Source of the DNA: Thermoanaerobaculia bacterium
GTDB lineage: Bacteria > Acidobacteriota > Thermoanaerobaculia > Multivoradales > JAGPDF01
NCBI GenBank assembly: GCA_031403995.1
Contig: JANNGS010000057.1
Coordinates: 12,173-76,172 of the forward strand
Length of the DNA: 64,000 nucleotides
Reading direction: 5' to 3'
Shown here: in pieces, positions 18,277 to 55,094 of the stretch
Position numbering within the stretch: position 1 is the stretch's first letter
Layout of the letters: the number at the start of each line of letters is the position of its first letter
Notes under the pieces: model-generated
Told to the model about the DNA's origin: nothing
Databases searched by the model: none
The model's input: only the letters and a program-made list of their open reading frames with translations
Position numbers and translations under genes: made by a program

Positions 18277-19292
18277 ATGAGAGTCTGTGTCTTGGATTCG
18301 ATCGGTTTGCTCGCCGGAGTCGTTCCGCTGTCGGCGCAGTTCCTGCCCTGTGCGGCGGATACCCACCTCACCCGCAAGGGGGACTATCTCAACGGCACGA
18401 CCGCAGTCGTCGACAGCGGGGTCTGGGAGTGGGAGATCGGCTCCGGCGACACCTACACCAGCATCCAGGGCATTTCTGCCGTCGGCATGTTCTATGCCAC
18501 CGTGCCGACCTCGATCCCGGCGCCTACGGTCTCGCCGCCGGTGCTGCGCTGCAACCGGAAAATTCCGCCTACTGCACCCTTGGCACCCAGTTCTATGCAC
18601 GGTGGATGGCGCAGTTCCCGGATCCACACGACCTCGTCGACTACTACGTAACGAATCGCCTGTCCCTCTCTGGATGGGATATTTCGGCCCACATCCGCGC
18701 CGCGCGGCTGGCCGGATTCGACGTCTATTCGGTCGGGATCGCCGAGCGGATTCTCGCGCGCCGCCCCGACTGGGAGCATGTCCTCTACGGTGGCTGGGAC
18801 TACACCGAGTTGTCCTGGGGCGCGCTGCTGCGGGCGATGCTCGAGCTCGAGGCGGCGGGTGACCTGCCGCCGGCAATGTATACCGAGGTGCTCGTGATCG
18901 CCGACCTGTTGATCGCCGCCCAAGCCGTGGACGGATCCTGGGGCGGGGGCGACTTCCAGGCCACCGCCTACGCCCTGCTCGGACTGCGCGCCGATCCGTG
19001 GAACTTCACCCTGCCGTGGCAGCAGGCGATCATTGAAGGGGTCGACTTCCTGCACGCCACGGTGAGTGCCGAACCGACCTGCGGCTGGAGCTATCCGCCC
19101 GAATACGGTGAGATGAACAGCGAGATCCTCGCCGCGCTGGCGGTCGTGCAGTCGCTGCCGTTCGTGGACGGTTTCGAGACCGCGGATACTTCGGCCTGGA
19201 GCTCCGAGGTTCCGACAGCGCTCGCGGCCCGGGGCAGCCAGGTCGTCGTGCAAGCCCCGGCGCCTCGACCCGCGGCGCAGCCCTTCGACTGA
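18277..19292 (+). pseudogene. Secreted protein interrupted by a frameshift near 18505-18530. It carries a signal peptide, then an alpha/alpha-toroid-like region with a DGSWGGG motif and a conserved C-terminal DGFETADTSAWSSEVP motif. This is either a genuine pseudogene or a sequencing indel.
   Basis: GGAGGAG lies 8 nt upstream of the ATG at 18277. The signal peptide MRVCVLDSIGLLAGVVPLSAQ is read in frame +1 of the track (ORF 18262..18651). The body continues only in the frame of ORF 18207..19292, and no single frame spans both parts. Confidence 0.5.
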
Positions 19293-22023: not shown

Positions 22024-22125
22024 TCGGCGCGCGATTTGTTGCGCGGCAAGTCACTGATTCTGCTGCAGTTGCCTGCCTGAACCCGGGCGGTGGCCGGGGC
22101 TCGCGTGCTACGCTCCCCACCCGCC

Positions 22126-24075
22126 ATGGCCAAGACAGACTCGTCGACCGGCGTCGACGTCCATCTGACCTCCCACGCACCGATCATCCGCTCGCCGAAG
22201 GACCTGGCGCGGTTGGGGTTGGGTGCATTGGGAGTGGTCTACGGCGACATCGGAACCTCGCCGCTCTATGCCATGAAGGAGTGCTTCAACTCCGCGCACG
22301 GTGTCGCGCCGCTGCTCGGCAATGTGCTGGGGGTCCTCTCGCTGGTCTTCTGGGCGCTCACGCTGATCATCTCCGTCAAGTACATCTCTTTCGTGCTGCG
22401 GGCCGACAACCATGGCGACGGCGGCATCCTCGCGCTCCTCGCTCTGGTTACCGAACAGCGCAGTCACCCCGGCAAAGGCGAGACGGGCAGGAAGCGCTGG
22501 ACAGTCCTGGTCAGTCTCGCTCTGGTCGGCACGTCGCTGCTCCTCGCCGAGGGCATGATCACCCCGGCCATCTCCGTCCTCTCCGCGCTCGAAGGGCTCG
22601 ACATGGCGACCCCGATCTTCCGCCCCTTTATCTTGCCGCTGGCGGTCGGAATTCTCCTCGCCCTGTTTCTCGTCCAGCGCAAGGGCACGGCCGGGATCGG
22701 TGCGGTCTTCGGCAAGGTGATGCTCGTCTGGTTCGCGGCGATCGCGGCCCTGGGACTCCCGGCCATCCTCCGCCATCCGGAGGTGCTGGGAGCGATCAAC
22801 CCGGCGCACGCCGTGCGCTTCTTCGCCGAGAACGGGCTGCACGGATTCCTCATCCTGGGGTCGGTCGTTCTCTGCGTCACGGGAGGAGAGGCGCTCTACG
22901 CGGACATGGGACATTTCGGGCGCGGCCCGATCCGCATCTCCTGGTTCTCGCTCGTCTTCCCGGCCCTTCTGATCAACTACTTCGGCCAGGGGAGCCTGCT
23001 GCTCGAGCGCGGCACGAGTGCGGTGGCGAATCCGTTCTTCGGTCTCGCACCCTCGATACTCCTCTATCCGCTGGTGATCCTGGCGACCGCCGCGGCGGTG
23101 ATCGCTTCCCAGGCGATGATCTCGGGCGCCTTCTCGCTCGCCCAGCAGGCGGTGCAACTGGGCTATCTTCCACGGCTCTCGATCATCCACACCTCGGGCG
23201 AGGCGAGCGGCCAGATCTACGTGCCGGAGATTAACCGGCTCCTGATGGTCGCCTGCATCGCGCTCACGCTCGGTTTCCGCGACTCCTCCAAGCTCGCCGG
23301 CGCCTATGGCATCTCGGTCATGGGCGCGATGATCTGCACCTCCGTCCTGCTCTCCGCGGTCGCCATCCGGCGCTGGAAGTGGTCCCCCGCGCTGGCCTTC
23401 GGGCTCGTGGCCCTATTCCTCGCGGTGGAAGTTCCGCTCCTCCTCGCCAACATCCCGAAGATCGTCCATGGCGGGTGGTTTCCACTCCTGGTGGGGTCGG
23501 TCTTCTTCTTCGCCATGACCACCTGGAACATCGGCCGGCGCGCAGTGCGGAGCTTTCTCGAGCTCGGAAGCCTGCCGATCGACCCCTTTCTGGCCCGTCT
23601 CGAGTCGTACAACGCGCACCGGGTGAAAGGAACGGCGGTTTTCATGACCTCGGCGATGGGGGTGACGCCGCCGATCCTGCTGCACCACTTCAAGCACAAC
23701 AAGGTGCTGCACGAGAAGGTCATCCTGTTCACGATCGTGACCGAGGGTATCCCGGAGGTCCCGAAGCGGGACCGGATCCAGATGCGCGAGCTGGCACATG
23801 GCTTCAGCGAGGTCATCGCGCACTACGGTTTCATGCAGACGCCGAACGTGCCGCTCGCCCTGCGCCGCGCGGCGGAGCAGGGGCTCGAGTTCGACCCCGG
23901 GACGGTGAGCTACTTCCTCGGCCGCGAGACCATTCTCACCACCGGCAAGTCGCGGATGTCCGGCATGCGCAAGAGCCTGTTCGTCTACCTCGCCCGCAAC
24001 GCGCGGCCTGCCAACGCCTTCTTCCGCATTCCTCCGAACCGCGTCATCGAGCTCGGCGCGCAGGTCGAGCTTTAG
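22126..24075 (+). CDS. kup: Second KUP potassium transporter, a tandem paralogue of the preceding gene.
   Basis: It is about 80% identical at the protein level to the 20074..22023 product and carries the same GDIGTSPLYA signature. Confidence 0.9.
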   Translation: MAKTDSSTGVDVHLTSHAPIIRSPKDLARLGLGALGVVYGDIGTSPLYAMKECFNSAHGVAPLLGNVLGVLSLVFWALTLIISVKYISFVLRADNHGDGGILALLALVTEQRSHPGKGETGRKRWTVLVSLALVGTSLLLAEGMITPAISVLSALEGLDMATPIFRPFILPLAVGILLALFLVQRKGTAGIGAVFGKVMLVWFAAIAALGLPAILRHPEVLGAINPAHAVRFFAENGLHGFLILGSVVLCVTGGEALYADMGHFGRGPIRISWFSLVFPALLINYFGQGSLLLERGTSAVANPFFGLAPSILLYPLVILATAAAVIASQAMISGAFSLAQQAVQLGYLPRLSIIHTSGEASGQIYVPEINRLLMVACIALTLGFRDSSKLAGAYGISVMGAMICTSVLLSAVAIRRWKWSPALAFGLVALFLAVEVPLLLANIPKIVHGGWFPLLVGSVFFFAMTTWNIGRRAVRSFLELGSLPIDPFLARLESYNAHRVKGTAVFMTSAMGVTPPILLHHFKHNKVLHEKVILFTIVTEGIPEVPKRDRIQMRELAHGFSEVIAHYGFMQTPNVPLALRRAAEQGLEFDPGTVSYFLGRETILTTGKSRMSGMRKSLFVYLARNARPANAFFRIPPNRVIELGAQVEL

Positions 24076-40160: not shown

Positions 40161-42998
40161 ATGCATCGACGTTGCTCCTGGATCGCCTGTTCCGCACTTG
40201 CCTTCGGCTCCGTGATGGCTGGTGCCGGCGGACCGACCTCGCTCGAGCTGCTCGGCCAGACCGCGATACCCGGGGAACCCCCCAGCGGGAGCGTCCCTTT
40301 GGGCGGGCTCTCCGCCCTGACCCTGGAGGAGCGATCGGGGAGATACCTCGCCCTTACCGACGATCGCAGCGAGAACGGCCCGGCGCGCTTCTACCGCCTG
40401 GCGATTACTCTCCCGGCCGAGGGTCGGGGGGCGCCCGTCGTCGTTGTCGAGGGTGCGACGACGCTGCTCGCGCGGAATGGCGCACCGTTTCCCCGCCGCG
40501 GGCTCGATCCTGAAGGGATCGCTCTCGGCGGCGAGCGGATCTACGTCTCATCGGAGGGCGAGGCCAAGGTCGGGCTGGCGCCTTTCGTTCAGGAGTTCGA
40601 CCTCCAGGGTCGCTTCCTGCGCGAGCTGCCGCTGCCCAGGCGCTACCTTCCTCAGGCGGGCGCCGATCTGGGTGTGCGCGACAACCTGGGGTTCGAGTCT
40701 CTCGCCCTCTCTCCCGACTGCCGCTACCTCTTCTCCGGCGCAGAGAACGGATTGGCGCAGGAGAGCCCGGCGTCGGCACCCGGCGTCGCGAGCCTCTCCC
40801 GCCTCCTGCGCTGGGATCTCGAGCGGGGCGGAGCCCCCGTGGAGTACCTCTATCGTGTCGAAGCGGTGAGCCGCACGCCGCCGTCGCCAACCGACCTGAT
40901 CATGAACGGCCTGGTCGAGCTGATCGCCCTCGATCGCGACCGGCTGCTGGCACTCGAACGCCAGTGGGTGCCCGGCGTCGGGGTCGAGATCAAGCTCTAC
41001 GCGGTTTCGCTCGCCGGGATTCCTGACGCCGCCAAGGTCGATCCGCCGGCGAGCCTGGAGCTCGCGACGGCGCAGAAGACCCTGTTGCTCAACTTCGCCG
41101 ATCTCGGGCTGCCGCTGGACAACTTCGAGGGCATGGCGTTGGGGCCGCCGCTGCCCGACGGAAGGCGCCCGCTCTTCATCGTCAGCGACGACAACTTCAA
41201 TCCCGATCTGCAGAAGACCTTCGTTCTCGCCCTCGCTGCCGGGTTCGAGCCGCTCACGATCGCTGCGCTGCAGGGCGGCGCTCATCGTTCGCCGCTCGTC
41301 GGCCGCTGGGTTGCCGGTGTCGAAGGCGTCGTAACGGCGACCGAGGACAGCGCGCGATCCAAGGGCTTCTGGATGGAGAGTGCGCAGCCCGATGCGGACC
41401 CGGCAACCTCGGATGGCATCTATGTCGCCTGGGAGGGCGCCTTCACCTTGCACCCGGGAGACCGGGTGCGGATCGGCGGGCGGGTCGAAGAGGTGGCGCC
41501 GTCGCCGACCGGCCTGCCGGTCACGACCGTCAGGCTCGTCGCGCTCGAAGCTCTGTCGGCAGGCGAGCGAGCGCTGCCGCCGCCGGTGCGGCTGATCGAC
41601 GGGCTGCGGATCCCGGGGCAGGTCGACGACGACGGCCTGACGAAGTTCGAACCCGGGACGGATGCCATCGACTTCTGGGAGAGCCTCGAGGGGATGCGGG
41701 TCGAGGTTCCTCCGGGGACCGTTGTCGGCGCCACCCGCTCGTTCGGGGATGTCGTCCTGCTCGCCGACGGGGCCGATACGGCCGGCGCCTTGCGCACCCC
41801 TGCCGGCGGGCTGCGGCAGCCGGCAGCGGGCAAGCTCTTCGAGCGCATCTTCCTGAGCCGCAGGATCGCCAGCAAGATGCCCGACTTCCAGGTCGGTGAC
41901 CGGATCGACTCGACCCTCACCGGCATCGTCGACTACGGCTTCTCGAACTACCGGGTGCAGCTGCTCGCGCCACCGCCGCTGCCGTCGCCTCCGGCGCCAG
42001 CTCGCGGGGCGCGGCCGGAGTGCGGCGACCGCACGGAGCTCACACCGGCGGCGGGGAAGCTCACCCTCGCCACGTGGAACGTCGAGAACCTCTCGATCGC
42101 CAGGGACGCACCGCGGATCGCGCGACTGGGACAGGCGCTCGTCGAAGCCCTCGCGGCGCCGGCGATCGTCGCCCTGCAGGAGATCCAGGACGACAGTGGC
42201 CCGGCCGACGACGGCGTGGTCACCGCGCACGCATCGCTGGCCGCTCTCGTCGAGGCGATCGTCGCCGCCGGCGGGCCGCGCTACGAACCGGTCGCGATCG
42301 ATCCCGAGAACAATCGCGACGGCGGCCAGCCCGGCGGCAACATCCGCGTGGCGCTGCTCTTCGATCCGACCCGGGTGGAGTTGGTGAAGCGCGGCGTGGC
42401 GCGCCCCAACGATCCGGTGGAGATCGTCGGCCGCGGCCGCACGATGACACTGTCGCTCTCGCCGGGACGGCTCGCGCCGGTGTCGAACGCATTCGACCTG
42501 CGCGCCGGAGAAGGAGTCCGCAAGTCGCTGGTGGTGCAGTTCCGGGCCGCCGGCGACTCCCTTTTCGTCATCGCCAATCACTGGACCTCGAAGTGGGACG
42601 ACGATCGCGCGTTCGGTTCCCGCCAGCCCCCGCACGCCCCGACTGCCCCGAAGCGTTTCGCCCAGGCGAAGGTGGTGCGCGAGTTCGTCGATCGCCTGCT
42701 CGCCGCCGAGCCCATGGCGCGGGTCGTCGTCCTGGGCGACCTGAACGAGTCGGAGACCAGTCCGGGAGTGGCCGCGCTCGGCGCTCTACCGCTCGTCAAC
42801 CTGGTGAGCAAGGCGACGGATGAGGATCGCTACAGCTACAACTTCGAGGGTGCCTCCGAGATCATCGACCACATCGTCGTGAGCCCGGCGCTCGCAGGAG
42901 GCGCCGAGGTGGACATCGTCCACCTCAACTCGAACTGTCCAGATTCCGAACGGCTCAGCGACCACGATCCGGTGGTCGCGCGGGTATCGATCCGTTGA
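40161..42998 (+). CDS. Secreted two-domain enzyme: an N-terminal esterase-like/phytase-like beta-propeller domain and a C-terminal endonuclease/exonuclease/phosphatase (EEP) domain (ExeM/NucH-type extracellular nuclease-like architecture).
   Basis: It has a signal peptide. The phytase-like region reads GLSALT...DPEGIAL...YVSSEG...FESLALSPD. The EEP motifs are LATWNVENLS, ALQEIQDD, IANHWTSK, GDLNE and SDHDPVVARVSI. Confidence 0.75.
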   Translation: MHRRCSWIACSALAFGSVMAGAGGPTSLELLGQTAIPGEPPSGSVPLGGLSALTLEERSGRYLALTDDRSENGPARFYRLAITLPAEGRGAPVVVVEGATTLLARNGAPFPRRGLDPEGIALGGERIYVSSEGEAKVGLAPFVQEFDLQGRFLRELPLPRRYLPQAGADLGVRDNLGFESLALSPDCRYLFSGAENGLAQESPASAPGVASLSRLLRWDLERGGAPVEYLYRVEAVSRTPPSPTDLIMNGLVELIALDRDRLLALERQWVPGVGVEIKLYAVSLAGIPDAAKVDPPASLELATAQKTLLLNFADLGLPLDNFEGMALGPPLPDGRRPLFIVSDDNFNPDLQKTFVLALAAGFEPLTIAALQGGAHRSPLVGRWVAGVEGVVTATEDSARSKGFWMESAQPDADPATSDGIYVAWEGAFTLHPGDRVRIGGRVEEVAPSPTGLPVTTVRLVALEALSAGERALPPPVRLIDGLRIPGQVDDDGLTKFEPGTDAIDFWESLEGMRVEVPPGTVVGATRSFGDVVLLADGADTAGALRTPAGGLRQPAAGKLFERIFLSRRIASKMPDFQVGDRIDSTLTGIVDYGFSNYRVQLLAPPPLPSPPAPARGARPECGDRTELTPAAGKLTLATWNVENLSIARDAPRIARLGQALVEALAAPAIVALQEIQDDSGPADDGVVTAHASLAALVEAIVAAGGPRYEPVAIDPENNRDGGQPGGNIRVALLFDPTRVELVKRGVARPNDPVEIVGRGRTMTLSLSPGRLAPVSNAFDLRAGEGVRKSLVVQFRAAGDSLFVIANHWTSKWDDDRAFGSRQPPHAPTAPKRFAQAKVVREFVDRLLAAEPMARVVVLGDLNESETSPGVAALGALPLVNLVSKATDEDRYSYNFEGASEIIDHIVVSPALAGGAEVDIVHLNSNCPDSERLSDHDPVVARVSIR

Positions 42999-44595
42999 CC
43001 GCAGGGCGCACCGACGCCGGTCCGTCTTCAGATCGGATGGCGTCGTCCCGGAGCGGACTGCATTCCGCTCCGACGAGACGCTCATAGCGGACCGGGGCCG
43101 AGCAGCTCCATCCAGCGTCGCGCAAGCGCAGCAGGAGGCCGGCCGACCGGCGCGCGTCCATGAGCATGAGGTGCGGAATATTCTCCCGGGCGATCTCGGG
43201 GAGTGCCTCCTCGAGAAGCGCAGGTGGTTTGAAGAGGGGATAGGACGTTCTTCCCTCGCGCACCCAACGGAAGTGGGTAAAGCCGTAGAAGGAAAGTCCG
43301 TTGGCTTGCGCCGAAATAACGACCAGCGAGGTCGAGCCGGGGGAGTGGGTGGATGCCAGGGAGTTGGCCAGTCGGCGCGAGTCGCGAGCGCCGACTGGCA
43401 AGTATGCGGCCCCCGCCTTGATGGCGACGAGAAAGAGGACCCAAGCCGCCAGAGGCTTCAGGAGGCGCCGCGACAGCATGTGCGTGTTCTCGAGTCGGCG
43501 CGCCAGGACGAGCGCCAGCGGTGTCCAGATCGGGAGGATGTAGAGCGGGAGGCGCGAGCTCGCTGCCATGAACAGCGCGAGCGGGAAGAGGACCCCGGAG
43601 AGCAGGAGCCAGTCGACAGGATTCTTGCGCGCGCCAACAAGTCGCCGCCAGGTAGCATTGCGCCAGGATGACGTGCCCAGCGTGCCTGCGGCAGCGATGG
43701 GCCACCAGGGAAGGGCGCCGAGCAGGAGGGTGGGCAAATAGGTGGCGACCGCACCCGTGACGCCGGGATTGCGTTGGTAGGAAGAGGTGAGGAGTCGCCC
43801 GGTCACCTGGTTGTCCATCATGTAGCTCGCAGATTCGGGGATGGTCCGGAGGATCGGTACGTACCAGGCGGCAGCGATTCCAAGCGCGAGGAGCACGCCG
43901 ATCCAGGCCTGCGGAGCCCGGAGCGCGGCCCGCAGGCGCCCCGATCCGGCGAGGTAGAACAGCACTGGCGGCAACGAGACAAGGAGAGCCGGCCCTTTGG
44001 TGAGCATCGCGAGGCCAGCTGCGAGGCCGGCAACCAGCCACCAGCGCCAACGCTGTGCGGGCGTCGAGGCCCCAGCGGCCCGAACCACGCCGAGCCAGGT
44101 GAAGGCGGAGAAGCAGGCGAGGGCGAGATCCGGCGTCACCATGTTCGCGGCGAGGAACGGCAGCAGGCTCGTTCCCCAGATCCCCGCGGCGAGCCAGCCC
44201 GTCTTGCGATCCCAGAGTGCCCGGCCGATGCCGGCCAGGGCCACGGCCTGCGCGAGGAAGAGAAACGCCAGCGGCAGGCGCGCCCCCCACTCGTTCCTGC
44301 CGCCGAGCGCCATGCCTCCCGCTAGACTCCAGTAGAGCAGCGGCGGCTTGTCCAGATACGGTTCGCCGTTCAGCCTCGGCACAAGCCAGTCTCCGGACCG
44401 GAGCATCTGCGCTGCGATCGCGGCGTACCGCCCTTCGTCCGGCTCCCAGAGCCCCCTGGAACCTTGAAAGGAAAGCGCAAGGACGGCGAGCAGCGCAACA
44501 ATGCCGAGGGCGCTCGACCGGCCCTCGACGGCTTCCACGCCAGCGCGTAACTTGCTGCCCCAGCCGACGTCGAAACGAGTCCCTGCGACGGTCAC
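42955..44595 (-). CDS. ArnT/PMT-family (GT39/GT83-like) undecaprenyl-phosphate-sugar:lipid glycosyltransferase.
   Basis: The N-terminal signature LWEPDEGRYAAIAAQMLRSGDWLVPRLNGEPYLDKPPLLYW is present, followed by polytopic hydrophobic segments. Its stop overlaps the convergent gene 40161..42998 by 44 nt. Confidence 0.8.
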   Translation of the reverse strand: MTVAGTRFDVGWGSKLRAGVEAVEGRSSALGIVALLAVLALSFQGSRGLWEPDEGRYAAIAAQMLRSGDWLVPRLNGEPYLDKPPLLYWSLAGGMALGGRNEWGARLPLAFLFLAQAVALAGIGRALWDRKTGWLAAGIWGTSLLPFLAANMVTPDLALACFSAFTWLGVVRAAGASTPAQRWRWWLVAGLAAGLAMLTKGPALLVSLPPVLFYLAGSGRLRAALRAPQAWIGVLLALGIAAAWYVPILRTIPESASYMMDNQVTGRLLTSSYQRNPGVTGAVATYLPTLLLGALPWWPIAAAGTLGTSSWRNATWRRLVGARKNPVDWLLLSGVLFPLALFMAASSRLPLYILPIWTPLALVLARRLENTHMLSRRLLKPLAAWVLFLVAIKAGAAYLPVGARDSRRLANSLASTHSPGSTSLVVISAQANGLSFYGFTHFRWVREGRTSYPLFKPPALLEEALPEIARENIPHLMLMDARRSAGLLLRLRDAGWSCSAPVRYERLVGAECSPLRDDAIRSEDGPASVRPAVNGSIPARPPDRGR

Positions 44596-48277: not shown

Positions 48278-51200
48278 TTGGGGGAAGCCATTTTGACAGG
48301 TTCTGCCTGCCTCAAACAATGCTCTCTATGGTTGGGCCGGGTGGCGCTTTTCCTGTTGGCTGTAGCGGCAGGGGCAGATCAGCTCTGGTTGGTGTCGCGG
48401 GGCCTGCCCAGCGACACGCCGGCGGGATGGTCGCAGCCGCACACGATGACTCCGGACGGACGCTACGTCCTCATGAGCTCGGCGGCCACGGGTTGGGTGA
48501 GCGGCATCGTGGACTCGAACGGCGGCCCGGACGTCTACCTGTGGGACCGGGATACGGGCGAGCACACCCTCGTCTCGCACACCGTCGGGGATCCGGCGAC
48601 GGCGGCGAACGACGAGTCGTTTCCCGGTTCGATCAGCGACGACGGCCGATTCGTGACCTTCAGCTCCTACGGTTCGGACCTGGTCGACGGCGCAACCGAC
48701 ATCAACTTCGTCGCCGACGTCTTTCTCTGGGACGGCGCCACCGGCTCGATCCAGCTCGTCTCGCACATGGGGGTCGCCGTAGCGATGACCGCGAACGAGC
48801 GCTCGACGCCGAACGCCATGAGCGCCGACGGCCGCTACGTCGTCTTCCAGTCCGTGGCCGACGATCTCGTCGCTGGCGGAGTCGACGACAACCAGACCTG
48901 GGACGTTTTCGTCTGGGACCGCGACACCTCCGAGGTGGTCCTGGTCTCGCACGATGCGGTCGATCCGGCGAGCGCGGCAGATGGACTGTCCGAGCCTGCC
49001 GCGATGAGCACCGACGGGCGCTACATCGCCTTCACTTCGTCGGCGACCAATCTGGTCGCCGGGACCACCGATGCCAATGCCGTCGAGGACGCCTTCGTCT
49101 GGGATCGGGTCGCGGGCGCTTCGACCCTGGTCTCGCACGCGGCGCCCTCGGCGACGACGGCGGCGAACAACTTCTCCGTCGCCCGGGCCATCAGTGCCGA
49201 CGGCCGCTATGTCGCTTACGACTCCAACGCCACCAACCTGATCACCGGCTGGTCGGGCTCGGCCGCCAACGTCTTTCTCTGGGATCGCGACACCGGCGGA
49301 GCGACCCTGGTCTCCCATCGCGCGACCGGTCTCGCCGCGGGAGCCGGCGGCTCCGAGCTCGGCGCGCTCAGTCCGGACGGCCAGAGCGTCGCCTTCGTGT
49401 CGAAGGCGGAAACGCTCATCGCCGGCGGCAGCGACGCCAATGCGGAGGACGACACCTTTCACTGGCGGGCCGACAGCGGCGCGGTGGCGCTGGTTTCCCA
49501 CACGGCTTCGTCGACGACCACGGCGGGAGATCGCGCGGCGCTGCCGGTGGCGATCAGCGCCGACGGTCAGTTCGTGCTCTATCGCTCGGCGTCGAGCGAT
49601 CACATCGCCGGGGGGAGCGACGCGAACGGCGTCGAAGACGCCTTTTTCTGGGACCGCGACAGCGGCGCGATCGAGCTCGTCTCGCGAACTCCTGCCAGCG
49701 CGACGACTCCGGGCGGCGCGGCTTCGACGCCGCGCGCGATGAGCGCCGACGGGCTGTGGGTCGCCCTCGCCTCCAAAGCCAGCGACCTGCTCTCGGGAGG
49801 CGTGGACGGCAACGGTGCCCAGGACGCCTTTCTCTGGGACCGCACGAGCGGCGCCCACAGTTTGATCTCAAGCGCCACTGTGGCGGAGGTAACCGGCGCG
49901 AACGGCCTGGTCAGCCCGCTGGCGCTGAGCTCCGATGGGCGGTTCGTCCTGTTCAGCTCGGAGGCGACCAATCTGCTGGCCGGTGGGACCGCAACCAGCG
50001 ACCTCTGGGACCTTCTGCAGTGGGATCGCACGACCGAAGCCTTGACCCTGGTCGCCCACGTCGCCGGCGAGCGGCCGACCGCGACGAACGAGGCCGGCAG
50101 CATGAGCTCCGACGGCCGCTACGTGGCGTTCTACTCCTTCGCCGCCGACCTGATCGCCGGCGGCAGCGATGCCAACGGCGAGGCCGACGCTTTTCTCTGG
50201 GATCAGACGAGCGGGCTGCGGATCCTCATTTCCGGCGCAGCCGGTTCGGGCACGGTGGCGGCGAACGGGCGCTCGATCCCGGCGGCGATGAGCCTGGACG
50301 GCCGCTACGTGACGTTCTGGTCGCTCTCCACCGACCTCGACGCGGGCCTAACCGACCTCAACGATGCCAGGGACGTCTTCCAATGGGATCGTGACACCGG
50401 CGTCGTGACCCTGATCTCGCACGTCGGCGGACAACCGCAGGTCGCGGCGGACTCCGAATCCGTTCCTACGGCGACGAGCGCCGACGGCCGTTACGTCGCT
50501 TTCTACTCGCAGGCGATGAGCCTGGTCGACGTCGCCAACGATCTCAACGGCACCGTCGAGGACGCCTTCCTTTGGGACCGCATCACCGGTGCGGTCACCC
50601 TCGTCTCGCACATTCCCGGGGCCCCGACGACCACCGGAAACGGCAAGTCGATACCTCTCGGGGTGAGCGCCGACGGCGAGTTCGTCGCCTTTGCCTCCAA
50701 ATCGAGCGACCTGATCGTCGGCAACGACGACGGGAACGGGCAGTTCGACCTTTTCCTCTGGGCGCGATCGAGCGGCGCGGTGACCCTCATCTCGCACTCC
50801 ACCATCGCGTCGACGAGCACCGGCGACGAGTTCAGTGCCTTCAAGGCGCTTTCCGCCGACGGCAATTTCGTCGCCTTCGTGTCGGCGGCGACCGACCTGA
50901 TCGTCGGGGGCATCGACTCCAACGGGCCGGGCGCCGACGCTTATCTGTGGAGTCGCCTGACTGGGGAGGTGCAACTGATCGCGCACGCCCCTGGCGATCC
51001 GGCGGCGACGGCGAACGGTGCCTCCGAGCCCGTGTCGTTGAGCGCCGATGGCCGCTATGTCGTGTTCTCGTCTTCCGCTTCCGACCTGGTCGCGGGTGCG
51101 CTCGACACCAACGAGCTCGCCGACGTCTACCTCTGGGATCGGTTGAGCGACAGCTCGATCCTGGCGTCGCACACGCTGGATGACGCGACCGTTTCGGCGT

Positions 51201-52984
51201 TCGGTCCCTCGACGGCGCGGGCGATGAGCGCGAACGGGAGCTACGTCCTGTTCTCTTCCGCCGCCCGGGACCTCGCGCCGGCAAACACCTCTGCGATCCA
51301 GGTCTACCTCTGGTCGGCCAACACCCTGGACGCGACTCCTCCGCTCAATCCGGCGATTGACTCGACGCTGCCACCGGTGTCGATCTGGTCGAACAGCCCT
51401 TGGGTCGAGATCAGCTGGTCGGGGGCGAGCGACGAGCTCGGCGGCTCGGGGATGCACGGCTATTCGACGCTCTGGGACACCTCAGCGGACACGGTTCCGG
51501 ACGCGGTCGTCGATGAACCGCACGCCACGGACCCCAATTCGGTGACCAGCCCGCCGCTCACCGACGGCGACTCGCACTACTTCCATCTCTCGACTTGCGA
51601 CTCGGCCGGCAACTGCGCTGCGACCGTGCATGCCGGACCGTTCTGGGTGGACACCACGCCGCCCGCTGCAGCCACCGCGCTGGCGAGCTCCAGTCATGCG
51701 GTGGGCGTGCCGTCGAACGACCCGACCGTCGACGTCCAATGGCAGGCGGCGCTCGACCAGGCCGGACTCTCCGGCATCGACGGTTACGCGGTGGAGTTCG
51801 AGGCGAACAGCGGCTGGACCTGTGACGAGGTGCTGGACCTCGAGGAGGGCACACTCTCGACGACGAGCCCGGTGCTCGCCGACGGCGAGTGGTACTTCCA
51901 CCTCTGCGCGCGCGACAACGCCGGCAACTGGGGGCCGGTGGCGTCGCTCGGGCCGTTCGTGATCGAGACCCTGCCGCCGGGCGCGGCCTCCGGGCTCGCG
52001 AGCTCGAGTCACGCGGTGGGCGTGCTGTCGAACGACCCGACCGTCGACGTCTCCTGGCAGGCGGCTCCCGACCTCGAGGTTCCCTCCGGCATCGATGGCT
52101 ACGCGATCCAGTTCGATGGGAACAGCAGTTGGACCTGCGATGAGGTCAAGGACGTCGAGGAGGACACGCTCGCGGCGACGAGCCCGGCGCTCGCCGACGG
52201 CGACAGGTACTTCCACCTCTGCGCGCGCGACAACGCCGGCAACTGGGGGCCGGTGGCGTCGCTCGGGCCGTTCGTGATCGACGCCTCACCGCCGGGCGCG
52301 GCCTCCGCACTCGCGAGCTCGAGTCACTCAGTGGGCGTGCCGTCGAACGACCCGACGGTCGACGTCTCCTGGCAGGCGGCTCCCGACCAGGCGGGTCCCT
52401 CCGGCATCGACGGCTACGCGCTTCAGTTCGATGCGAACAGCAGCTGGACCTGTGACGAGGTGCTGGACGTCGAGGAGGGCACACTCGCAACGACGAGCCC
52501 GGTGCTCGCCGACGGCGACGGGTACTTCCACCTCTGCGCGCGCGACAACGCCGGCAACTGGGGGCCGGTGGCGTCGCTCGGCCCGTTCTTGATCGACGCC
52601 TCCCCGCCGGGCGCGGCCTCCGGGCTCGCGAGCTCGAGCCACGTGGTGGGCGTGCCGTCGAACGACCCGACGGTCGACGTTCAATGGCAGGCGGCTCCCG
52701 ACCAGGCGGAGTCCTCCGGCATCGACGGCTACGCGCTGCAGTTCGATGCGAACAGCGGCTGGGCCTGCGACGAAGTGCAGGACGTCGAGGAGGTCACGCT
52801 CGCGGCGACGAGCCCGGCGCTCGCCGACGGCGACTGGTATTTCCACCTCTGCGCGCGCGACAACGCCGGCAACTGGGGACCGGTAGCGTCGATCGGGCCG
52901 TTCGTGATCGAAATCTCCGCGACCGTTTTCATCGACGGGTTCGAGCTCGGCGATATGTCGCGATGGTCCAGCAATGTGCCTTGA
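48278..52984 (+). CDS. Giant secreted protein (about 1570 aa). It has a signal peptide, about 19 tandem PD40/TolB-like beta-propeller repeats (...SxDGRYVaF.S.A.dLvaG.tD.N...DVFLWDR.TG...LVSH), one diverged and four near-identical roughly 105-aa Fn3/Ig-like modules, and a terminal DGFELGDMSRWSSNVP motif.
   Basis: The repeat architecture was read directly from the translation. The start is approximate; TTG at 48278 or 48293 gives ...CLKQCSLWLGRVALFLLAVAAGADQ. Confidence 0.8.
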   Translation: MGEAILTGSACLKQCSLWLGRVALFLLAVAAGADQLWLVSRGLPSDTPAGWSQPHTMTPDGRYVLMSSAATGWVSGIVDSNGGPDVYLWDRDTGEHTLVSHTVGDPATAANDESFPGSISDDGRFVTFSSYGSDLVDGATDINFVADVFLWDGATGSIQLVSHMGVAVAMTANERSTPNAMSADGRYVVFQSVADDLVAGGVDDNQTWDVFVWDRDTSEVVLVSHDAVDPASAADGLSEPAAMSTDGRYIAFTSSATNLVAGTTDANAVEDAFVWDRVAGASTLVSHAAPSATTAANNFSVARAISADGRYVAYDSNATNLITGWSGSAANVFLWDRDTGGATLVSHRATGLAAGAGGSELGALSPDGQSVAFVSKAETLIAGGSDANAEDDTFHWRADSGAVALVSHTASSTTTAGDRAALPVAISADGQFVLYRSASSDHIAGGSDANGVEDAFFWDRDSGAIELVSRTPASATTPGGAASTPRAMSADGLWVALASKASDLLSGGVDGNGAQDAFLWDRTSGAHSLISSATVAEVTGANGLVSPLALSSDGRFVLFSSEATNLLAGGTATSDLWDLLQWDRTTEALTLVAHVAGERPTATNEAGSMSSDGRYVAFYSFAADLIAGGSDANGEADAFLWDQTSGLRILISGAAGSGTVAANGRSIPAAMSLDGRYVTFWSLSTDLDAGLTDLNDARDVFQWDRDTGVVTLISHVGGQPQVAADSESVPTATSADGRYVAFYSQAMSLVDVANDLNGTVEDAFLWDRITGAVTLVSHIPGAPTTTGNGKSIPLGVSADGEFVAFASKSSDLIVGNDDGNGQFDLFLWARSSGAVTLISHSTIASTSTGDEFSAFKALSADGNFVAFVSAATDLIVGGIDSNGPGADAYLWSRLTGEVQLIAHAPGDPAATANGASEPVSLSADGRYVVFSSSASDLVAGALDTNELADVYLWDRLSDSSILASHTLDDATVSAFGPSTARAMSANGSYVLFSSAARDLAPANTSAIQVYLWSANTLDATPPLNPAIDSTLPPVSIWSNSPWVEISWSGASDELGGSGMHGYSTLWDTSADTVPDAVVDEPHATDPNSVTSPPLTDGDSHYFHLSTCDSAGNCAATVHAGPFWVDTTPPAAATALASSSHAVGVPSNDPTVDVQWQAALDQAGLSGIDGYAVEFEANSGWTCDEVLDLEEGTLSTTSPVLADGEWYFHLCARDNAGNWGPVASLGPFVIETLPPGAASGLASSSHAVGVLSNDPTVDVSWQAAPDLEVPSGIDGYAIQFDGNSSWTCDEVKDVEEDTLAATSPALADGDRYFHLCARDNAGNWGPVASLGPFVIDASPPGAASALASSSHSVGVPSNDPTVDVSWQAAPDQAGPSGIDGYALQFDANSSWTCDEVLDVEEGTLATTSPVLADGDGYFHLCARDNAGNWGPVASLGPFLIDASPPGAASGLASSSHVVGVPSNDPTVDVQWQAAPDQAESSGIDGYALQFDANSGWACDEVQDVEEVTLAATSPALADGDWYFHLCARDNAGNWGPVASIGPFVIEISATVFIDGFELGDMSRWSSNVP
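51653..52915 (+). repeat. Four tandem, nearly identical 315-bp DNA repeats (units starting near 51653, 51969, 52284 and 52593) that encode the Fn3/Ig-like modules, plus one older diverged copy near 51340-51652.
   Basis: Long identical strings recur every 315 bp, for example gacaacgccggcaactgggggccggtggcgtcgctcgggccgttcgtgatcga and tcgaacgacccgac.gtcgacgtc. They produce a stack of phantom overlapping ORFs in the track (51595..52490). Confidence 0.85.
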
Positions 52985-53027
52985 GAGCCTGGGCGGCAGA
53001 GCTTTCGCAAACGACAAGGAGTCTCCG

Positions 53028-53915
53028 ATGGCATCGAAGCGCAGGACGGGTGCAAGGGTCGGGCTGCTCTTGCTGGCAGGCGCGTTGACGTCGTCTGCCT
53101 GGCTGATGGCGGGTGAGAGCGGAGAGCGCGAGACCCTGGCCTCTGCCCGCGTCTCCCGCTGCACGCCGGTCGAGGTCCGGGCGGTCCACGGCGGCGAGCT
53201 GCCGGCCAACGCGCGGCTGGCGCGAATCGAGAACGGCAAGGTGCCGTGCATGCACGTCGAGGAGATGACGATCGCCAGCTGTGAGTTTTCGACCTCGAGC
53301 GAGGCGTTGAGCGGCAAGTGGCTCGAGGGCCCGGAAGGGCAGTTCGCGCTCGTCGGTCAGGCGGTGTCGCGCGACGGCAAGCCGGGCGGGGATTGGATCG
53401 TCGCCGCGCGGGTCGAAGGTGGAGAGTCCGCGTATTGCAGCGAGCCGACCGGTATGGACACCGCCGGGCGTGTCTCACCGGGCGTCGAGCTCGCCAACAT
53501 CTGCGTCATCGAAGATGTTCTCCAGCAATGGAACGCAATGTCGATCTACGGCTCGGGGACGTTGGTGAACGTTGCGACGATGGAGGTCTGCAGCCTCAAC
53601 AACCCCGCGACGCGGCCCCACCCGGACGGCGCAGAGCTCGTCCGCAGCTACTCGTCCAACGGCGGTGACGTCGACGACATCTTCTGCTACACCGGCTGGG
53701 GCGCCGGGCTCAACGACATCAACGGTACCGAGCGCGACGAAACCACCAACTATCTGACTGGCGAACGGTACTGCCACTGGATCGTCAGCTCTGGATTCGA
53801 GGTTCCGGGAGCCAAGCGCCCGGCCACCAAGAGCCTGCCGGCGCCGGGCATCGTCAACGTCAAATCCCTCGTCGTCTGGCGGCCGGTGAATCCCAACGTC
53901 AATATCGCCAACTGA
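53028..53915 (+). CDS. Secreted Cys-containing hypothetical protein (about 295 aa). Its local composition looks less GC-rich than the neighbouring genes.
   Basis: It has the signal peptide MASKRRTGARVGLLLLAGALTSSAWLMA and eight Cys residues. The track ORF starts at 52974 in the same frame. Confidence 0.55.
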   Translation: MASKRRTGARVGLLLLAGALTSSAWLMAGESGERETLASARVSRCTPVEVRAVHGGELPANARLARIENGKVPCMHVEEMTIASCEFSTSSEALSGKWLEGPEGQFALVGQAVSRDGKPGGDWIVAARVEGGESAYCSEPTGMDTAGRVSPGVELANICVIEDVLQQWNAMSIYGSGTLVNVATMEVCSLNNPATRPHPDGAELVRSYSSNGGDVDDIFCYTGWGAGLNDINGTERDETTNYLTGERYCHWIVSSGFEVPGAKRPATKSLPAPGIVNVKSLVVWRPVNPNVNIAN

Positions 53916-53924
53916 AGGTCGAAA

Positions 53925-55094
53925 GTGAACGTGGAGCTCTTCTCGATGGTAGCCCTCCTTCTGGGGTGTCTGCCGTGGGCAGAAGCGGCCTCGCCGCCGA
54001 CTCCGGTCGCGCCGGCGAGGGCGACGGGGGCGGCGCTCCTTGCCAGCCGTTTGCCGCGGGTGGAGTATCGCGGCGGGCTGTTCCTCAGGAAGATCCGCGT
54101 CGTTACCATCACCTTCGCTGGCGACGATCCGGCGCTCGTGGCGCGGCTCGAGCGCTTCGGCGACACGATCGTCCGCTCGCCCTGGTGGCGGGACTCGGTC
54201 GAGGGGTATTGCGCGACCGCGGGCGACTGCATCGGCGCGGGCCGCCCGGGGCTTGCGGTCCGCCTGGACGAGCAGCTGCCCTCGCGGGTCCATGGCGTCG
54301 ACATCTCGGCCCTCCTGCGCCGCGAAGCGCGCGCCGGACGCTTCGGGGCGTACGATCCGGAGAGCGTCTACGTCGTCTATCTGCCCGCCGGAGTCACCCT
54401 GTTCGACGCCTACCAGGAGCATTACTGCGCCGGCGGGCCGCGCGCCTTTCACCGCGCGCTGCGCGACGGCGAGCGGTTGAACGGCTTCTCGGTCATCCCG
54501 CGCTGCGGCGACGAGAGCGAGCTCACCGGGACCGCGAGCCACGAGCTCGTCGAGCTCGCGACCAACCCCGACACACAACAGCGGGGCTTCGCCTTCGAGC
54601 AGAGCTCGAACCAGCTGGCTTTCCTCGCCGCGGGCGTCGAGCCGATGGATCCCTGTGGACTCCTCACCCGGGATAGCCACCGCCTGCAGGAGAGCGGTTT
54701 CACGGTGCAGGGGGCGTGGTCCAACCGCGCCGCCGCGCTGGGACAGGATCCGTGCGCGCCGCTTCCCGCGCCCCAGGCCTATGTGGCGGGCATCCCGCGC
54801 GCGCCTTCGCTGCGGCTGCGACAGGTCGGCGACCGCGCCACCGTCGTCCTGGACGCGACCGCGGACCGCCCGGGCGTCGAATGGCAGCTGTCGGTCGTCG
54901 ACCTGAGCGGCGAGCAGGAGGGCGTGCGCTATGTGGAAGCGGCGCTCGAGAAGTCGACGGTGACCGCCGGCGAGTCCGTCACGCTCACGCTCGAGCTGCG
55001 CCGGCGCCACCCGCAGGAGACGGTCGTCGTGGCCATACTTTCGACCCTCGGCGACCAGACCCGGATGTGGCCGCTGGCGGTGAACACGCGCTGA
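53925..55094 (+). CDS. Secreted hypothetical protein (389 aa) with several Cys pairs and an HELVELATNPD motif.
   Basis: It has the signal peptide MNVELFSMVALLLGCLPWAEA and protein-like composition. The opposite-strand ORF 53475..55265 is junk. Confidence 0.55.
   Translation: MNVELFSMVALLLGCLPWAEAASPPTPVAPARATGAALLASRLPRVEYRGGLFLRKIRVVTITFAGDDPALVARLERFGDTIVRSPWWRDSVEGYCATAGDCIGAGRPGLAVRLDEQLPSRVHGVDISALLRREARAGRFGAYDPESVYVVYLPAGVTLFDAYQEHYCAGGPRAFHRALRDGERLNGFSVIPRCGDESELTGTASHELVELATNPDTQQRGFAFEQSSNQLAFLAAGVEPMDPCGLLTRDSHRLQESGFTVQGAWSNRAAALGQDPCAPLPAPQAYVAGIPRAPSLRLRQVGDRATVVLDATADRPGVEWQLSVVDLSGEQEGVRYVEAALEKSTVTAGESVTLTLELRRRHPQETVVVAILSTLGDQTRMWPLAVNTR

What the first reader, a model, noticed from the sequence alone, without database searches (positions are those of the whole stretch)
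48278..52984. Giant PD40-propeller secreted protein with four near-identical 315-bp tandem DNA repeats encoding Fn3/Ig-like modules
About 19 PD40/TolB-type blades, enough for two or three propellers, are followed by five roughly 105-aa modules. The last four are almost identical at the nucleotide level, which indicates recent amplification by unequal recombination and a likely length-variable region, as in adhesins or S-layer proteins.

The repeats are strong enough to generate stacks of phantom ORFs on other frames. The protein ends in the DGFExGDxSxWSSxVP tag shared with the gene at 18277..19292.
Basis: seen in the sequence. Interest (0 to 1): 0.65.

Follow-up and report, generated by a model that had tools for sequence, protein, structure and literature searches.

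The report
Secreted propeller protein with portable tail tag
This is a real but fairly ordinary giant secreted protein of an uncultured acidobacterium (16 propeller blades on a stalk of five Fn3 modules), and its most interesting part is a 19-residue tail that thousands of unrelated secreted proteins in the same bacterial group also carry and that no curated database describes.

Summary
The ORF at 48278..52984 (+) is real. It encodes a signal peptide, 16 PD40 blades of about 62 aa (not about 19), five Fn3-fold modules (A, then B1-B4) and a 19-aa tail.

The four B copies form a true 315-nt tandem array. However, they are only 85-90% identical in DNA (dS 0.21-0.34, longest identical run 76 nt). 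The amplification is therefore lineage-specific but old. It is neither near-identical nor an assembly hazard.

About 6,900 relatives share the PD40 core, mostly in Thermoanaerobaculia and other Acidobacteriota MAGs. The closest relatives carry A plus one B.

The tail ([LIV]-F-A-D-G-F-E-S-G-D-T-S-x-W-S-x-x-V-P-stop) is the notable part:
- In a sampled genome scan, 104 of 136 motif matches stop within 8 aa after the W, and 90 of those lie in Acidobacteriota.
- An exhaustive profile search found 4,138 protein clusters.
- Carriers are unrelated secreted proteins (subtilases, FG-GAP, BNR, carboxypeptidases), usually with signal peptides.
- Nothing in Pfam, NCBIfam or the searched papers matches it.
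- It has no membrane helix or basic cluster, so it is not a sortase- or exosortase-type signal.

I read the tail as an undescribed localisation or docking tag. This is inferred, not shown.

The parts
48293..48376 (+). Probable Sec signal peptide (…LWLGRVALFLLAVAAGA|DQ). The start codon is ambiguous: TTG 48293 (preceded by GGGGGA) or TTG 48332.
   Evidence: The sequence is. Homologues have signal peptides that end just before DQ(T)WLVS. The identical NCBI protein P0001 starts 51 aa later, at ATG 48446, and so lacks the signal peptide. A promoter-like TTGACA-16-AACAAT at 48293-48320 would favour 48332.
48377..51331 (+). PD40 beta-propeller region: 16 blades of about 62 aa, most simply two eight-bladed propellers.
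51332..51655 (+). Fn3-like module A (108 aa), the diverged first module.
   Evidence: An HMM built from the modules finds it at 160.6 bits in P0001. The same A+B pair occurs in relatives.
51656..51970 (+). Fn3-like module B1 (105 aa), tandem copy 1.
51971..52285 (+). Fn3-like module B2, tandem copy 2.
52286..52600 (+). Fn3-like module B3, tandem copy 3.
52601..52915 (+). Fn3-like module B4, tandem copy 4 (the copy that was modelled).
   Evidence: The AF2 model is a beta-sandwich with pLDDT about 95. Foldseek places it among Fn3 domains. The PDB profile search gives chitinase A1 Fn3 at E=3.6e-5.
52925..52981 (+). C-terminal 19-aa tag VFIDGFELGDMSRWSSNVP, followed by TGA at 52982-52984.
   Evidence: The tag is conserved at the C-termini of homologues. 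It is a portable tag on unrelated secreted proteins. The model shows it unstructured, pLDDT about 56. Pfam and NCBIfam give no match.
19158..19214 (+). Second copy of the tag (PFVDGFETADTSAWSSEVP), in the frameshifted gene 18277..19292. It is followed by a 26-aa family-specific tail.

Best explanation
The locus encodes a Sec-exported, non-enzymatic, modular protein of a Thermoanaerobaculia-like acidobacterium.

- Head: a rigid binding unit of 16 PD40 blades, most simply two eight-bladed propellers.
- Stalk: five Fn3-fold modules. This lineage lengthened the stalk by an old tandem duplication of module B, from one copy to four.
- Tail: a 19-residue, intrinsically unstructured tag, [LIV]-F-x-D-G-F-E-S-G-D-T-S-x-W-S-x-x-V-P-COOH.

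The tag is a discrete, portable unit that Acidobacteriota append to many unrelated secreted proteins. I infer that it is a localisation or docking signal. A partner outside the cytoplasm would read it, for export across the outer membrane or for non-covalent attachment at the cell surface, rather than an intramembrane sortase-type enzyme.

Its sequence equals the first beta-strand of concanavalin-like / CBM4_9-like jelly-roll domains. The most concrete mechanism is therefore docking by strand addition or calcium-dependent binding to a jelly-roll-type receptor.

Shown: the ORF, the domain architecture, the folds (predicted), the age of the repeats, and the distribution, position and cargo diversity of the tag.

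Inferred: export, the role of the tag, its partner, and the ligand of the propellers.
For: Architecture:
- ORF and repeats.
- PD40. The 16 blades. Propeller fold matches.
- Fn3 fold of the modules.

Export:
- Signal peptide and the conserved A-x-A|DQ junction.

Age and origin of the array:
- dS is 0.21-0.34 and dN/dS is 0.29-0.55.
- Relatives carry A plus one B.
- B copies are closer to each other than to the orthologous B.

The tag as a portable terminal unit:
- It ends homologues that have different C-terminal domain sets.
- Four unrelated genes on one 18-kb contig end in it.
- In the genome scan, 104 of 136 motif matches stop within 8 aa after the W. The mode is exactly 5 aa (69 of 104).
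- 90 of the 104 lie in Acidobacteriota-labelled MAGs.
- 59 of 78 complete carriers have a signal-peptide-like N-terminus.
- Cargo includes S8, M14, M28 and C1 peptidases, FG-GAP, BNR, beta-helix and GH8 proteins.
- The exhaustive profile search gives 4,138 clusters at E<=0.001. Of 62 single-copy hits among the best 150, 55 are terminal, and tandem double tags exist.
- The tag is unstructured in the model.

The tag sits in the anchor slot:
- Homologous PD40 cores and Fn3 arrays end instead in PEP-CTERM-like, dockerin-like, T9SS-CTD-like or PGF-CTERM-like tails.

Relation to jelly rolls:
- In other phyla the same motif opens domains of about 170-290 aa. These give weak matches to Polysacc_lyase, Laminin_G_3 and CBM_4_9, with the motif aligned to CBM_4_9 profile positions 1-48.
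Against: - No experiment or structure shows what the tag binds or whether it is cleaved.
- No conserved neighbouring gene for a sorting enzyme or receptor was found. The only recurrent neighbours are an ECF sigma factor plus a Ser/Thr kinase.
- The tag lacks the membrane helix and basic cluster that all established small C-terminal sorting domains have.
- In one family, including the window's second copy, the tag is not terminal. A conserved tail of about 21-28 aa follows it.
- The jelly-roll matches are below the Pfam thresholds.
- The 2x8 propeller arrangement rests on fold matches, not on inspected coordinates.
Confidence: 0.6

Rival explanations
1. One reading: the four B modules are a recent unequal-recombination amplification and form a hypervariable, length-polymorphic region of an adhesin or S-layer protein.
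For: The array is a perfect in-frame head-to-tail repeat with exact 315-nt spacing. The closest relatives have one B, so copy number has changed in this lineage. A 61-76-nt stretch is identical between B1, B2 and B3, which could reflect occasional gene conversion.
Against: Copies differ at 10-15% of bases, and dS is 0.21-0.34. dN/dS of 0.29-0.55 indicates purifying selection on each copy. No close strain is available to show polymorphism.
Confidence: 0.15
2. The repeat array is an assembly artefact: a collapsed or expanded repeat.
For: The source is a MAG-type contig. Another gene in the window (18277..19292) carries a frameshift or deletion that may be an assembly error.
Against: Each copy carries its own substitutions (31-48 differences per 315 nt), and the longest shared run is 76 nt. 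The reading frame is intact through all copies. An identical protein is on record at NCBI.
Confidence: 0.03
3. The tail is not a signal. It is a vestigial or structural leftover: the first strand of a lost jelly-roll domain, or a capping strand for the preceding domain.
For: In other phyla the motif is the start of full jelly-roll-like domains. Relatives P0003, P0004, P0007, P0014 and P0026 have a jelly-roll-like domain just before the tag.
Against: There is strong positional constraint: the stop falls exactly 5 aa after the W in 69 of 104 cases, with a conserved S-x-x-V-P end. The tag follows unrelated folds. Tandem double tags and a short ...FADGFE-stop form with a genuine stop codon exist. 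Stop codons are mixed, so this is not recoding. The tag is disordered next to the Fn3 module in the model.
Confidence: 0.17
4. The protein is a periplasmic TolB-like component, as sources annotate relatives ('Tol biopolymer transport system component'), and is not a surface or secreted protein.
For: PD40 repeats and TolB fold matches. The annotation of homologues. No proven route across the outer membrane.
Against: There is no TolB N-terminal domain, there are 16 blades rather than 6, and there is no tol-pal neighbourhood. Homologous cores carry surface-anchor-type tails such as PEP-CTERM-like and dockerin-like ones. The Fn3 stalk is typical of extracellular proteins.
Confidence: 0.1

Closest known systems
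Multi-propeller PD40 proteins of Acidobacteriota MAGs, annotated 'Tol biopolymer transport system component' or 'PD40 domain-containing protein' (e.g. P0002, P0007 on CXWL01002738.1, P0014)
   Same: They share the 16-repeat PD40 core at 35-57% identity, the signal peptide and the A+B Fn3-like pair. Several carry the same C-terminal tag.
   Different: This protein has four B modules instead of one. It lacks the roughly 350-aa Ig plus jelly-roll segment that P0003, P0004, P0007, P0014 and P0026 carry before the tag.
TolB and the tricorn protease beta-propellers (PDB 1c5k, 2hqs, 1k32)
   Same: PD40-type four-stranded blades; Foldseek probability 1.0.
   Different: TolB has six blades plus an N-terminal domain and sits in the tol-pal operon. 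Tricorn has 6+7 blades fused to a protease. Here there are 16 blades, no catalytic domain and global TM-scores of only 0.17-0.33.
Fibronectin type III domains of bacterial extracellular proteins (e.g. Bacillus circulans chitinase A1 Fn3, PDB 1k85) and Pfam Big_13 / Big_3_4
   Same: Same fold. The D-x-A-G-N stretch gives weak Big_13 and Big_3_4 matches. Related proteins use arrays of up to 15 modules.
   Different: A single module matches no Pfam model above threshold. The modules have their own signature: S-x-S-H, SG-x-x-GY, W-Y-F-H-L-C-A-x-D-x-A-G-N-W.
Small C-terminal protein-sorting domains (LPXTG, PEP-CTERM, GlyGly-CTERM, MYXO-CTERM), as defined in bioRxiv 10.1101/2023.06.07.544157
   Same: Located at the C-terminus, several per genome or contig, invariant signature residues, carriers otherwise unrelated and bearing signal peptides.
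   Different: There is no hydrophobic transmembrane segment and no Arg cluster, so an intramembrane sortase-like enzyme is unlikely. No cognate enzyme was identified.
Dockerin modules and T9SS C-terminal domains (non-membrane C-terminal targeting or docking modules)
   Same: They occupy the same C-terminal slot on homologous cores. Like the tag they have no transmembrane segment (recalled from knowledge). The tag is short, acidic and Gly-rich, and it can occur as a tandem pair like the two dockerin repeats (the resemblance to dockerin is recalled, not tested).
   Different: There is no sequence match to either. The T9SS CTD is a folded domain of 70-100 aa. Dockerin is an EF-hand-like pair of about 60-70 aa. 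The tag is 19 aa and predicted to be disordered.
Concanavalin-like / CBM4_9 jelly-roll domains
   Same: The tag sequence (F-x-DGFE-x-G-x-x-x-x-W) equals the opening strand of such domains in Chloroflexota, Actinomycetota, Armatimonadota and archaea.
   Different: In the target only that strand is present; the rest of the domain is absent.

Membership tests
PD40 / WD40-like beta-propeller repeat (Pfam PF07676) | Sequence match above the Pfam gathering score | tested here: met
   44.3 bits against a cut-off of 20.9.
PD40 / WD40-like beta-propeller repeat (Pfam PF07676) | Four-stranded blades arranged as a propeller | tested here: met
TolB proper (Tol-Pal system) | N-terminal alpha/beta domain plus a six-bladed propeller, encoded in a tol-pal gene cluster | tested here: not met
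   There are 16 blades starting right after the signal peptide. The neighbours are a two-component system, an SDF symporter and unknown genes.
Fibronectin type III domain | Seven-stranded beta-sandwich of Fn3 topology | tested here: met
   AF2 pLDDT is about 95. Foldseek probability is 1.0 to titin, chitinase A1 and integrin Fn3 domains, with target-normalised TM about 0.7.
Fibronectin type III domain | Sequence match to curated Fn3 or Big profiles | tested here: inconclusive
   No Pfam fn3 hit. Big_13 (35.9 bits) and Big_3_4 (33.9 bits) pass their cut-offs only when summed over the whole protein; single modules reach E about 0.01-0.1. A module profile hits the solved Fn3 1k85 at E=3.6e-5.
Length-variable (contingency-type) surface-protein repeats | Near-identical DNA copies | tested here: not met
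   Nucleotide identity is 84.8-90.2%, dS is 0.21-0.34, and the longest identical run is 76 nt.
Length-variable (contingency-type) surface-protein repeats | Copy number differs between close strains | not testable with these tools
   No relative closer than 57% identity was found. More distant relatives have one B.
Tripartite C-terminal sorting domains (LPXTG, PEP-CTERM and similar; criteria in 10.1101/2023.06.07.544157) | [quoted passage not shown] | tested here: met
   104 of 136 matches stop within 8 aa after the W. 55 of 62 single-copy hits in the exhaustive search are terminal. The exception is one family with a further tail of about 21-28 aa.
Tripartite C-terminal sorting domains (LPXTG, PEP-CTERM and similar; criteria in 10.1101/2023.06.07.544157) | Multiple occurrences in one genome on otherwise unrelated proteins that have N-terminal signal peptides | tested here: met
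   There are 2 in this window and 4 on an 18-kb contig. Several loci come from single MAGs. Cargo is diverse. 59 of 78 carriers have signal-peptide-like N-termini by a crude test. Whole-genome counts were not obtainable.
Tripartite C-terminal sorting domains (LPXTG, PEP-CTERM and similar; criteria in 10.1101/2023.06.07.544157) | Hydrophobic transmembrane segment followed by a basic cluster | tested here: not met
   The tag ends ...W-S-x-x-V-P-stop, with no hydrophobic stretch and no Arg or Lys.
Tripartite C-terminal sorting domains (LPXTG, PEP-CTERM and similar; criteria in 10.1101/2023.06.07.544157) | Co-occurring cognate processing enzyme | not testable with these tools
   Neighbour clustering found only an ECF sigma factor plus a Ser/Thr kinase.
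T9SS C-terminal domain / dockerin | Match to the curated models; a folded domain of about 60-100 aa | tested here: not met
   Tails of 30-52 aa gave no NCBIfam hit, and in Pfam only a chance-level DUF6954 match (E=0.2), at E<=10. The same approach did detect a 24-aa PEP-CTERM. The tag is 19 aa with pLDDT about 56.
Concanavalin-like / CBM4_9 jelly roll | A complete beta-sandwich domain of about 130-200 aa | tested here: not met
   The target has only the first-strand motif. The full domain follows the motif in other phyla, with sub-threshold Pfam matches.

The most novel reading that the evidence does not exclude
The 19-residue tail ([LIV]-F-A-D-G-F-E-S-G-D-T-S-x-W-S-x-x-V-P-COOH) may be the signature of a previously undescribed protein localisation system of Acidobacteriota, chiefly Thermoanaerobaculia and Holophagae. 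It would be a membrane-helix-free C-terminal tag derived from the first strand of a jelly-roll domain. It would dock hundreds of different secreted enzymes and binding proteins to a cognate receptor, by strand complementation or calcium-dependent binding, or route them across the outer membrane.
Probability: 0.4. Interest if true: 0.65.

Novelty: new variant of a known kind. Interest (0 to 1): 0.4.

Why it matters
The protein as a whole is one more member of a very large, uncharacterised family of acidobacterial PD40 proteins. Its repeat array is an ordinary, aged domain duplication.

What could matter is the tail. It satisfies most of the in-silico criteria that led to the discovery of the PEP-CTERM/exosortase, GlyGly-CTERM/rhombosortase and MYXO-CTERM systems. 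It lacks their membrane anchor, however, so it would point to a different mechanism.

Acidobacteriota are abundant in soils and sediments, and how they export and display their many hydrolases is poorly known. A recognisable tag would give three things:
- a way to predict their surface and secreted proteome from sequence;
- a handle for finding the machinery;
- a possible short docking tag for engineering.

Tried and rejected
- **Known-family search for the tag.** NCBIfam and Pfam scans of 30-52-aa tails at E<=10 gave nothing except a chance-level DUF6954 match (E=0.2). NCBIfam on the whole protein also gave nothing.
- **Literature.** Full-text searches for DGFESG, GFESGD, DTSAWS, FADGFE, GFETGD and SGDTSAW found only three unrelated papers. 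A search on Thermoanaerobaculia and sorting signals returned only general sorting-signal papers.
- **Conserved operon partner or sorting enzyme.** The neighbours of P0002, P0004, P0007 and P0125 differ from one another. All-against-all clustering of ORFs around 120 tag loci found only an ECF sigma factor plus a Ser/Thr kinase-TPR pair, in 14 loci. These are regulators, not a machine.
- **Stop-codon recoding or read-through into a downstream jelly-roll.** Rejected: stops are TGA 51, TAG 41 and TAA 12, and there is no consistent in-frame extension.
- **Recent DNA exchange of the tag between the two window genes.** Rejected: 35 of 60 bases are identical.
- **Close strains for copy-number comparison.** None found. 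The best protein identity is 57%, the best in metagenome contigs is 55%, and no locus gave a megablast hit. The exact protein was not in the contig index.
- **Assembly artefact.** Rejected because each copy carries its own substitutions.
- **Truncated '...FADGFE' endings as contig-end artefacts.** Rejected: a genuine TGA follows.
- **Not done.** I could not inspect model coordinates, so 2x8 blades is inferred from fold matches.
Full report

A single ORF runs from 48278 to the TGA at 52982-52984 on the + strand. It has the third-position G+C of real genes in this 69% G+C window: GC3 0.87 and GC2 0.54.

Tandem Repeats Finder reports a 315-nt period with 3.9 copies, 88% matches, no indels and score 1932 at 51671-52911. 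The repeat finder gives four copies spaced exactly 315 nt apart.

In frame, the C-terminal third of the protein is:
- module A, 108 aa, at 51332-51655;
- modules B1-B4, 105 aa each, at 51656-52915;
- a 22-aa tail, SATVFIDGFELGDMSRWSSNVP.

- Pairwise identity among B1-B4 is 84.8-90.2% in DNA and 75-86% in protein.
- Nei-Gojobori dS is 0.21-0.34 and dN/dS is 0.29-0.55.
- The longest run identical between two copies is 76 nt.

The blade count is also off. There are 16 anchors (S-x-D-G-hydrophobic) spaced 59-63 aa apart, not about 19.

The many overlapping ORFs are the normal by-product of high G+C. They are as dense over the non-repetitive PD40 part as over the repeats.

**2. Anatomy**

*Start and signal peptide.* The N-terminus reads …LWLGRVALFLLAVAAGA|DQLWLVS. 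Homologues have signal peptides that end just before DQ(T)WLVS or similar. The protein is therefore almost certainly exported.

The start codon is TTG 48293, six bases downstream of GGGGGA. Alternatively it is TTG 48332, if the promoter-like TTGACA-16-AACAAT at 48293-48320 is real. The identical protein on record at NCBI (P0001, 1512 aa) starts at ATG 48446 and so lacks the signal peptide.

*PD40 region.*
- Pfam PD40 scores 44.3 bits against a cut-off of 20.9.
- An AlphaFold2 model of residues about 28-1017, built on 65 aligned homologues, has pLDDT 93.2 and pTM 0.85. It shows 16 four-stranded blades.
- Foldseek matches tricorn protease, TolB and double-propeller proteins at probability 1.0. 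Global TM-scores are only 0.17-0.33, so no solved structure shares the whole arrangement.
- I recall those structures as eight-bladed. Two eight-bladed propellers is therefore the simplest reading, but I could not inspect coordinates.

*Modules.*
- A model of B4 plus the tail, built on 27 aligned modules, is a confident beta-sandwich with pLDDT about 95 over residues 1-105.
- Foldseek places it among Fn3 domains: titin I110, chitinase A1 Fn3 and integrin beta4 Fn3. Probability is 1.0 and target-normalised TM is about 0.7.
- A profile of the modules hits the chitinase A1 Fn3 (1k85) at E=3.6e-5.
- Single modules match no Pfam model above threshold. Big_13 and Big_3_4 pass their cut-offs only when summed over the whole protein.
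- The 22 tail residues have pLDDT about 56 and no secondary structure.

**3. Relatives and history of the array**

The PD40 core is extremely common. In the homology search 6,872 of the 8,000 candidates scored reached E<=1e-5. They come largely from Thermoanaerobaculia, Holophagae and other Acidobacteriota MAGs, where sources call them 'Tol biopolymer transport system component'. The source organism is therefore probably Thermoanaerobaculia-like. This is inferred, because no close DNA relative was found.

- The nearest relative, P0002, is 57% identical and consists of PD40 + A + one B + tag.
- P0121 (Thermoanaerobaculia) has the same layout.
- P0003, P0004, P0007, P0014 and P0026 have A + B (P0003 has one extra module), then an Ig plus jelly-roll-like segment of about 350 aa, then the same tag.
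- No relative in that set has more than three modules.

B1-B3 are 80-85% identical to B4, whereas the B modules of P0002 and P0121 are 63% and 62% identical to it. The fourfold expansion therefore arose in this lineage after it split from those relatives. With dS of 0.2-0.3 it is not recent.

Because every copy carries its own substitutions, assembler collapse or expansion is unlikely.

Long arrays of the same module type are common elsewhere. Metagenome loci L125 and L126 carry 15 and 13 modules. A five-module stalk is thus unremarkable.

**4. The tail tag**

This was the part that repaid attention. The tail recurs at the very C-terminus of homologues with different domain sets.

On one 18-kb metagenome contig (L004), four unrelated genes end in it:
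- a CAP-domain protein;
- two proteins without Pfam matches;
- the MAM-like + A + B protein P0125.

I back-translated F-x-D-G-F-E-x-G-D-x3-W and scanned 185,579 species-representative genomes. Within those loci:
- 104 of 136 motif matches have a stop codon within 8 aa after the W. In 69 of them the stop is exactly 5 aa after it.
- The consensus is [LIV]-F-A-D-G-F-E-S-G-D-T-S-A-W-S-x-T-V-P-stop.
- 90 of the 104 lie in MAGs labelled Acidobacteriota, Thermoanaerobaculia (including Multivoradales) or Holophagae.
- 59 of 78 complete carriers have a signal-peptide-like N-terminus by a crude test.

Pfam on 64 carriers shows unrelated cargo: five S8 subtilases, five FG-GAP proteins, four BNR proteins, three beta-helix proteins, two M14 peptidases, and single M28, C1, GH8, peptidyl-arginine deiminase and GSDH proteins, plus two cytochrome c7 proteins.

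An exhaustive HMMER search with a 32-column profile of the tail found 4,138 cluster representatives at E<=0.001. In the best 150:
- 55 of 62 single-copy hits are terminal;
- some proteins end in two tandem tags 20-25 aa apart;
- others carry the motif internally every 190-300 aa.

A short form, …F-A-D-G-F-E-stop, ends other PD40 homologues, and it has a genuine TGA.

**5. Where the motif comes from**

The matches that are not terminal lie mostly in Chloroflexota, Actinomycetota, Armatimonadota and archaea. There the motif sits right after a signal peptide or linker and opens a domain of about 170-290 aa.

Those domains give weak, sub-threshold matches to Polysacc_lyase, Laminin_G_3 and CBM_4_9. 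The motif aligns to profile positions 1-48 of CBM_4_9.

The acidobacterial tag is thus the first strand of a concanavalin-like jelly roll, used on its own.

**6. What the tag most likely does**

Haft's criteria for small C-terminal sorting domains are these:
- location near the C-terminus;
- several occurrences per genome;
- invariant signature residues;
- a transmembrane helix;
- a basic cluster;
- carriers with signal peptides.

The tag meets all of these except the transmembrane helix and the basic cluster. It is therefore not a member of the sortase, exosortase, rhombosortase or myxosortase class of signals.

Homologous PD40 cores and Fn3 arrays end in other devices in the same position. 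These are PEP-CTERM-like, dockerin-like, T9SS-CTD-like and PGF-CTERM-like tails. That 'choice of anchor' pattern argues that the tag fills a localisation or anchoring slot.

My best inference is a docking or export tag read outside the cytoplasm. The most concrete mechanism is strand addition, or calcium-dependent binding, to a jelly-roll-type receptor.

Several points count against this:
- No partner gene was found near tagged genes. The only recurrent neighbours are an ECF sigma factor with a Ser/Thr kinase-TPR protein, in 14 of 120 loci.
- In one family the tag is followed by a conserved tail of about 21-28 aa ending R-P-x-A-x-P-[FVM]-[RD].
- Nothing experimental exists.

Two alternatives were tested and rejected: recoding of the stop and recent DNA transfer of the tag between the two window genes.

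**7. The second tagged gene in the window**

The gene at 18277..19292 starts at ATG 18277 with a signal peptide. It changes reading frame near 18525. It also lacks about 34 residues that are present in intact 379-aa homologues (78-79% identical). It is a pseudogene or an assembly error. Its 28 codons after the tag are a feature of that whole family, not an accident.

**8. Context**

Upstream lie a response regulator, a histidine kinase and an SDF-family symporter. Downstream lie two secreted proteins without Pfam matches, then an ABC ATPase and a solute-binding protein. None of these neighbours is conserved next to relatives. No terminator-like site follows the stop codon.

**9. Verdict**

The gene, the tandem array, the Fn3-type modules and the shared tail are real. 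The blade count, the 'near-identical' description and the 'recent, length-variable' inference are not supported.

As a protein it is a new member of a very common but uncharacterised acidobacterial family. The tail is a widespread, stereotyped, portable tag that is absent from the Pfam and NCBIfam copies and from the literature I could search. If it is a sorting or docking signal, which I put at about 0.4, it is a new variant of that kind of system, one that works without a membrane anchor.

Overall interest is moderate, at 0.4.

Noticed in passing
window 18277-19292 (+): The second tag-bearing gene is disrupted. The frame changes near 18525, and about 34 residues are missing relative to intact 379-aa homologues (P0133-P0141, 72-79% identical). 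It is a pseudogene or an assembly error.
   Followed up: yes
P0133-P0170 (homologues of window 18277-19292); window 19215-19292: In this family of about 375 aa with no Pfam match, the tag is not terminal. A tail of about 21-28 aa follows it, with a conserved end R-P-x-A-x-P-[FVM]-[RD]-stop. Two members stop 4 aa after the W instead. This may be a second signal or a pro-peptide.
   Followed up: partly
loci L013, L030, L035, L048, L060, L070, L072, L076, L077, L083, L090, L102, L104, L108: An ECF sigma factor (PF07638) and a Ser/Thr protein kinase with TPR repeats (about 1000 aa) sit next to tagged genes in 14 of 120 loci. This may be a dedicated regulatory pair for tagged secreted proteins.
   Followed up: partly
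window 48293-48320 (+): A promoter-like TTGACA-16-AACAAT (10 of 12 matches) overlaps the candidate TTG start at 48293. If it is real, translation starts at TTG 48332 on a nearly leaderless mRNA. The NCBI copy of the protein starts at ATG 48446 and omits the signal peptide.
   Followed up: partly
window 52974-53915 and 53925-55094 (+): Two downstream ORFs have signal peptides and no Pfam match. The second contains H-E-L-V-E. The first overlaps the stop of the big gene by 11 nt if its ATG at 52974 is used. No terminator-like site lies between them. They are not conserved next to relatives.
   Followed up: partly
P0199, P0203-P0206, P0220: Some proteins end in two tandem copies of the tag, 20-25 aa apart. 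This is reminiscent of the duplicated segments of dockerins.
   Followed up: no
P0005-P0120; L192 4560-4700: Homologous PD40 cores end in at least five other ways. The commonest is ...VDV-x-G-Y-F-E-stop. The others are a short ...F-A-D-G-F-E-stop (genuine TGA), PEP-CTERM-like tails (P0009, P0075), dockerin-like tails (P0020, P0024, P0097) and ...F-T-I-E-stop.
   Followed up: partly
loci L125, L126, L127; L177, L179, L181: Arrays of up to 15 of the same Fn3-like module (W-Y-F-H-L-R-A-x-D-N-A-G-N-W) occur in metagenome proteins. Some end in T9SS-CTD-like tails (L125-L127) and others in PGF-CTERM-like tails (L177, L179, L181).
   Followed up: partly
window 20053-22023 and 22090-24075 (+): Two adjacent ORFs of similar size (656 and 661 aa), both with strong coding signal. 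They look like tandem paralogues but were not examined.
   Followed up: no
window 42955-44595 (-): A PMT_2 / dolichyl-phosphate-mannose-type glycosyltransferase lies 4 kb upstream. No link to the Ser/Thr-rich tag was tested.
   Followed up: no
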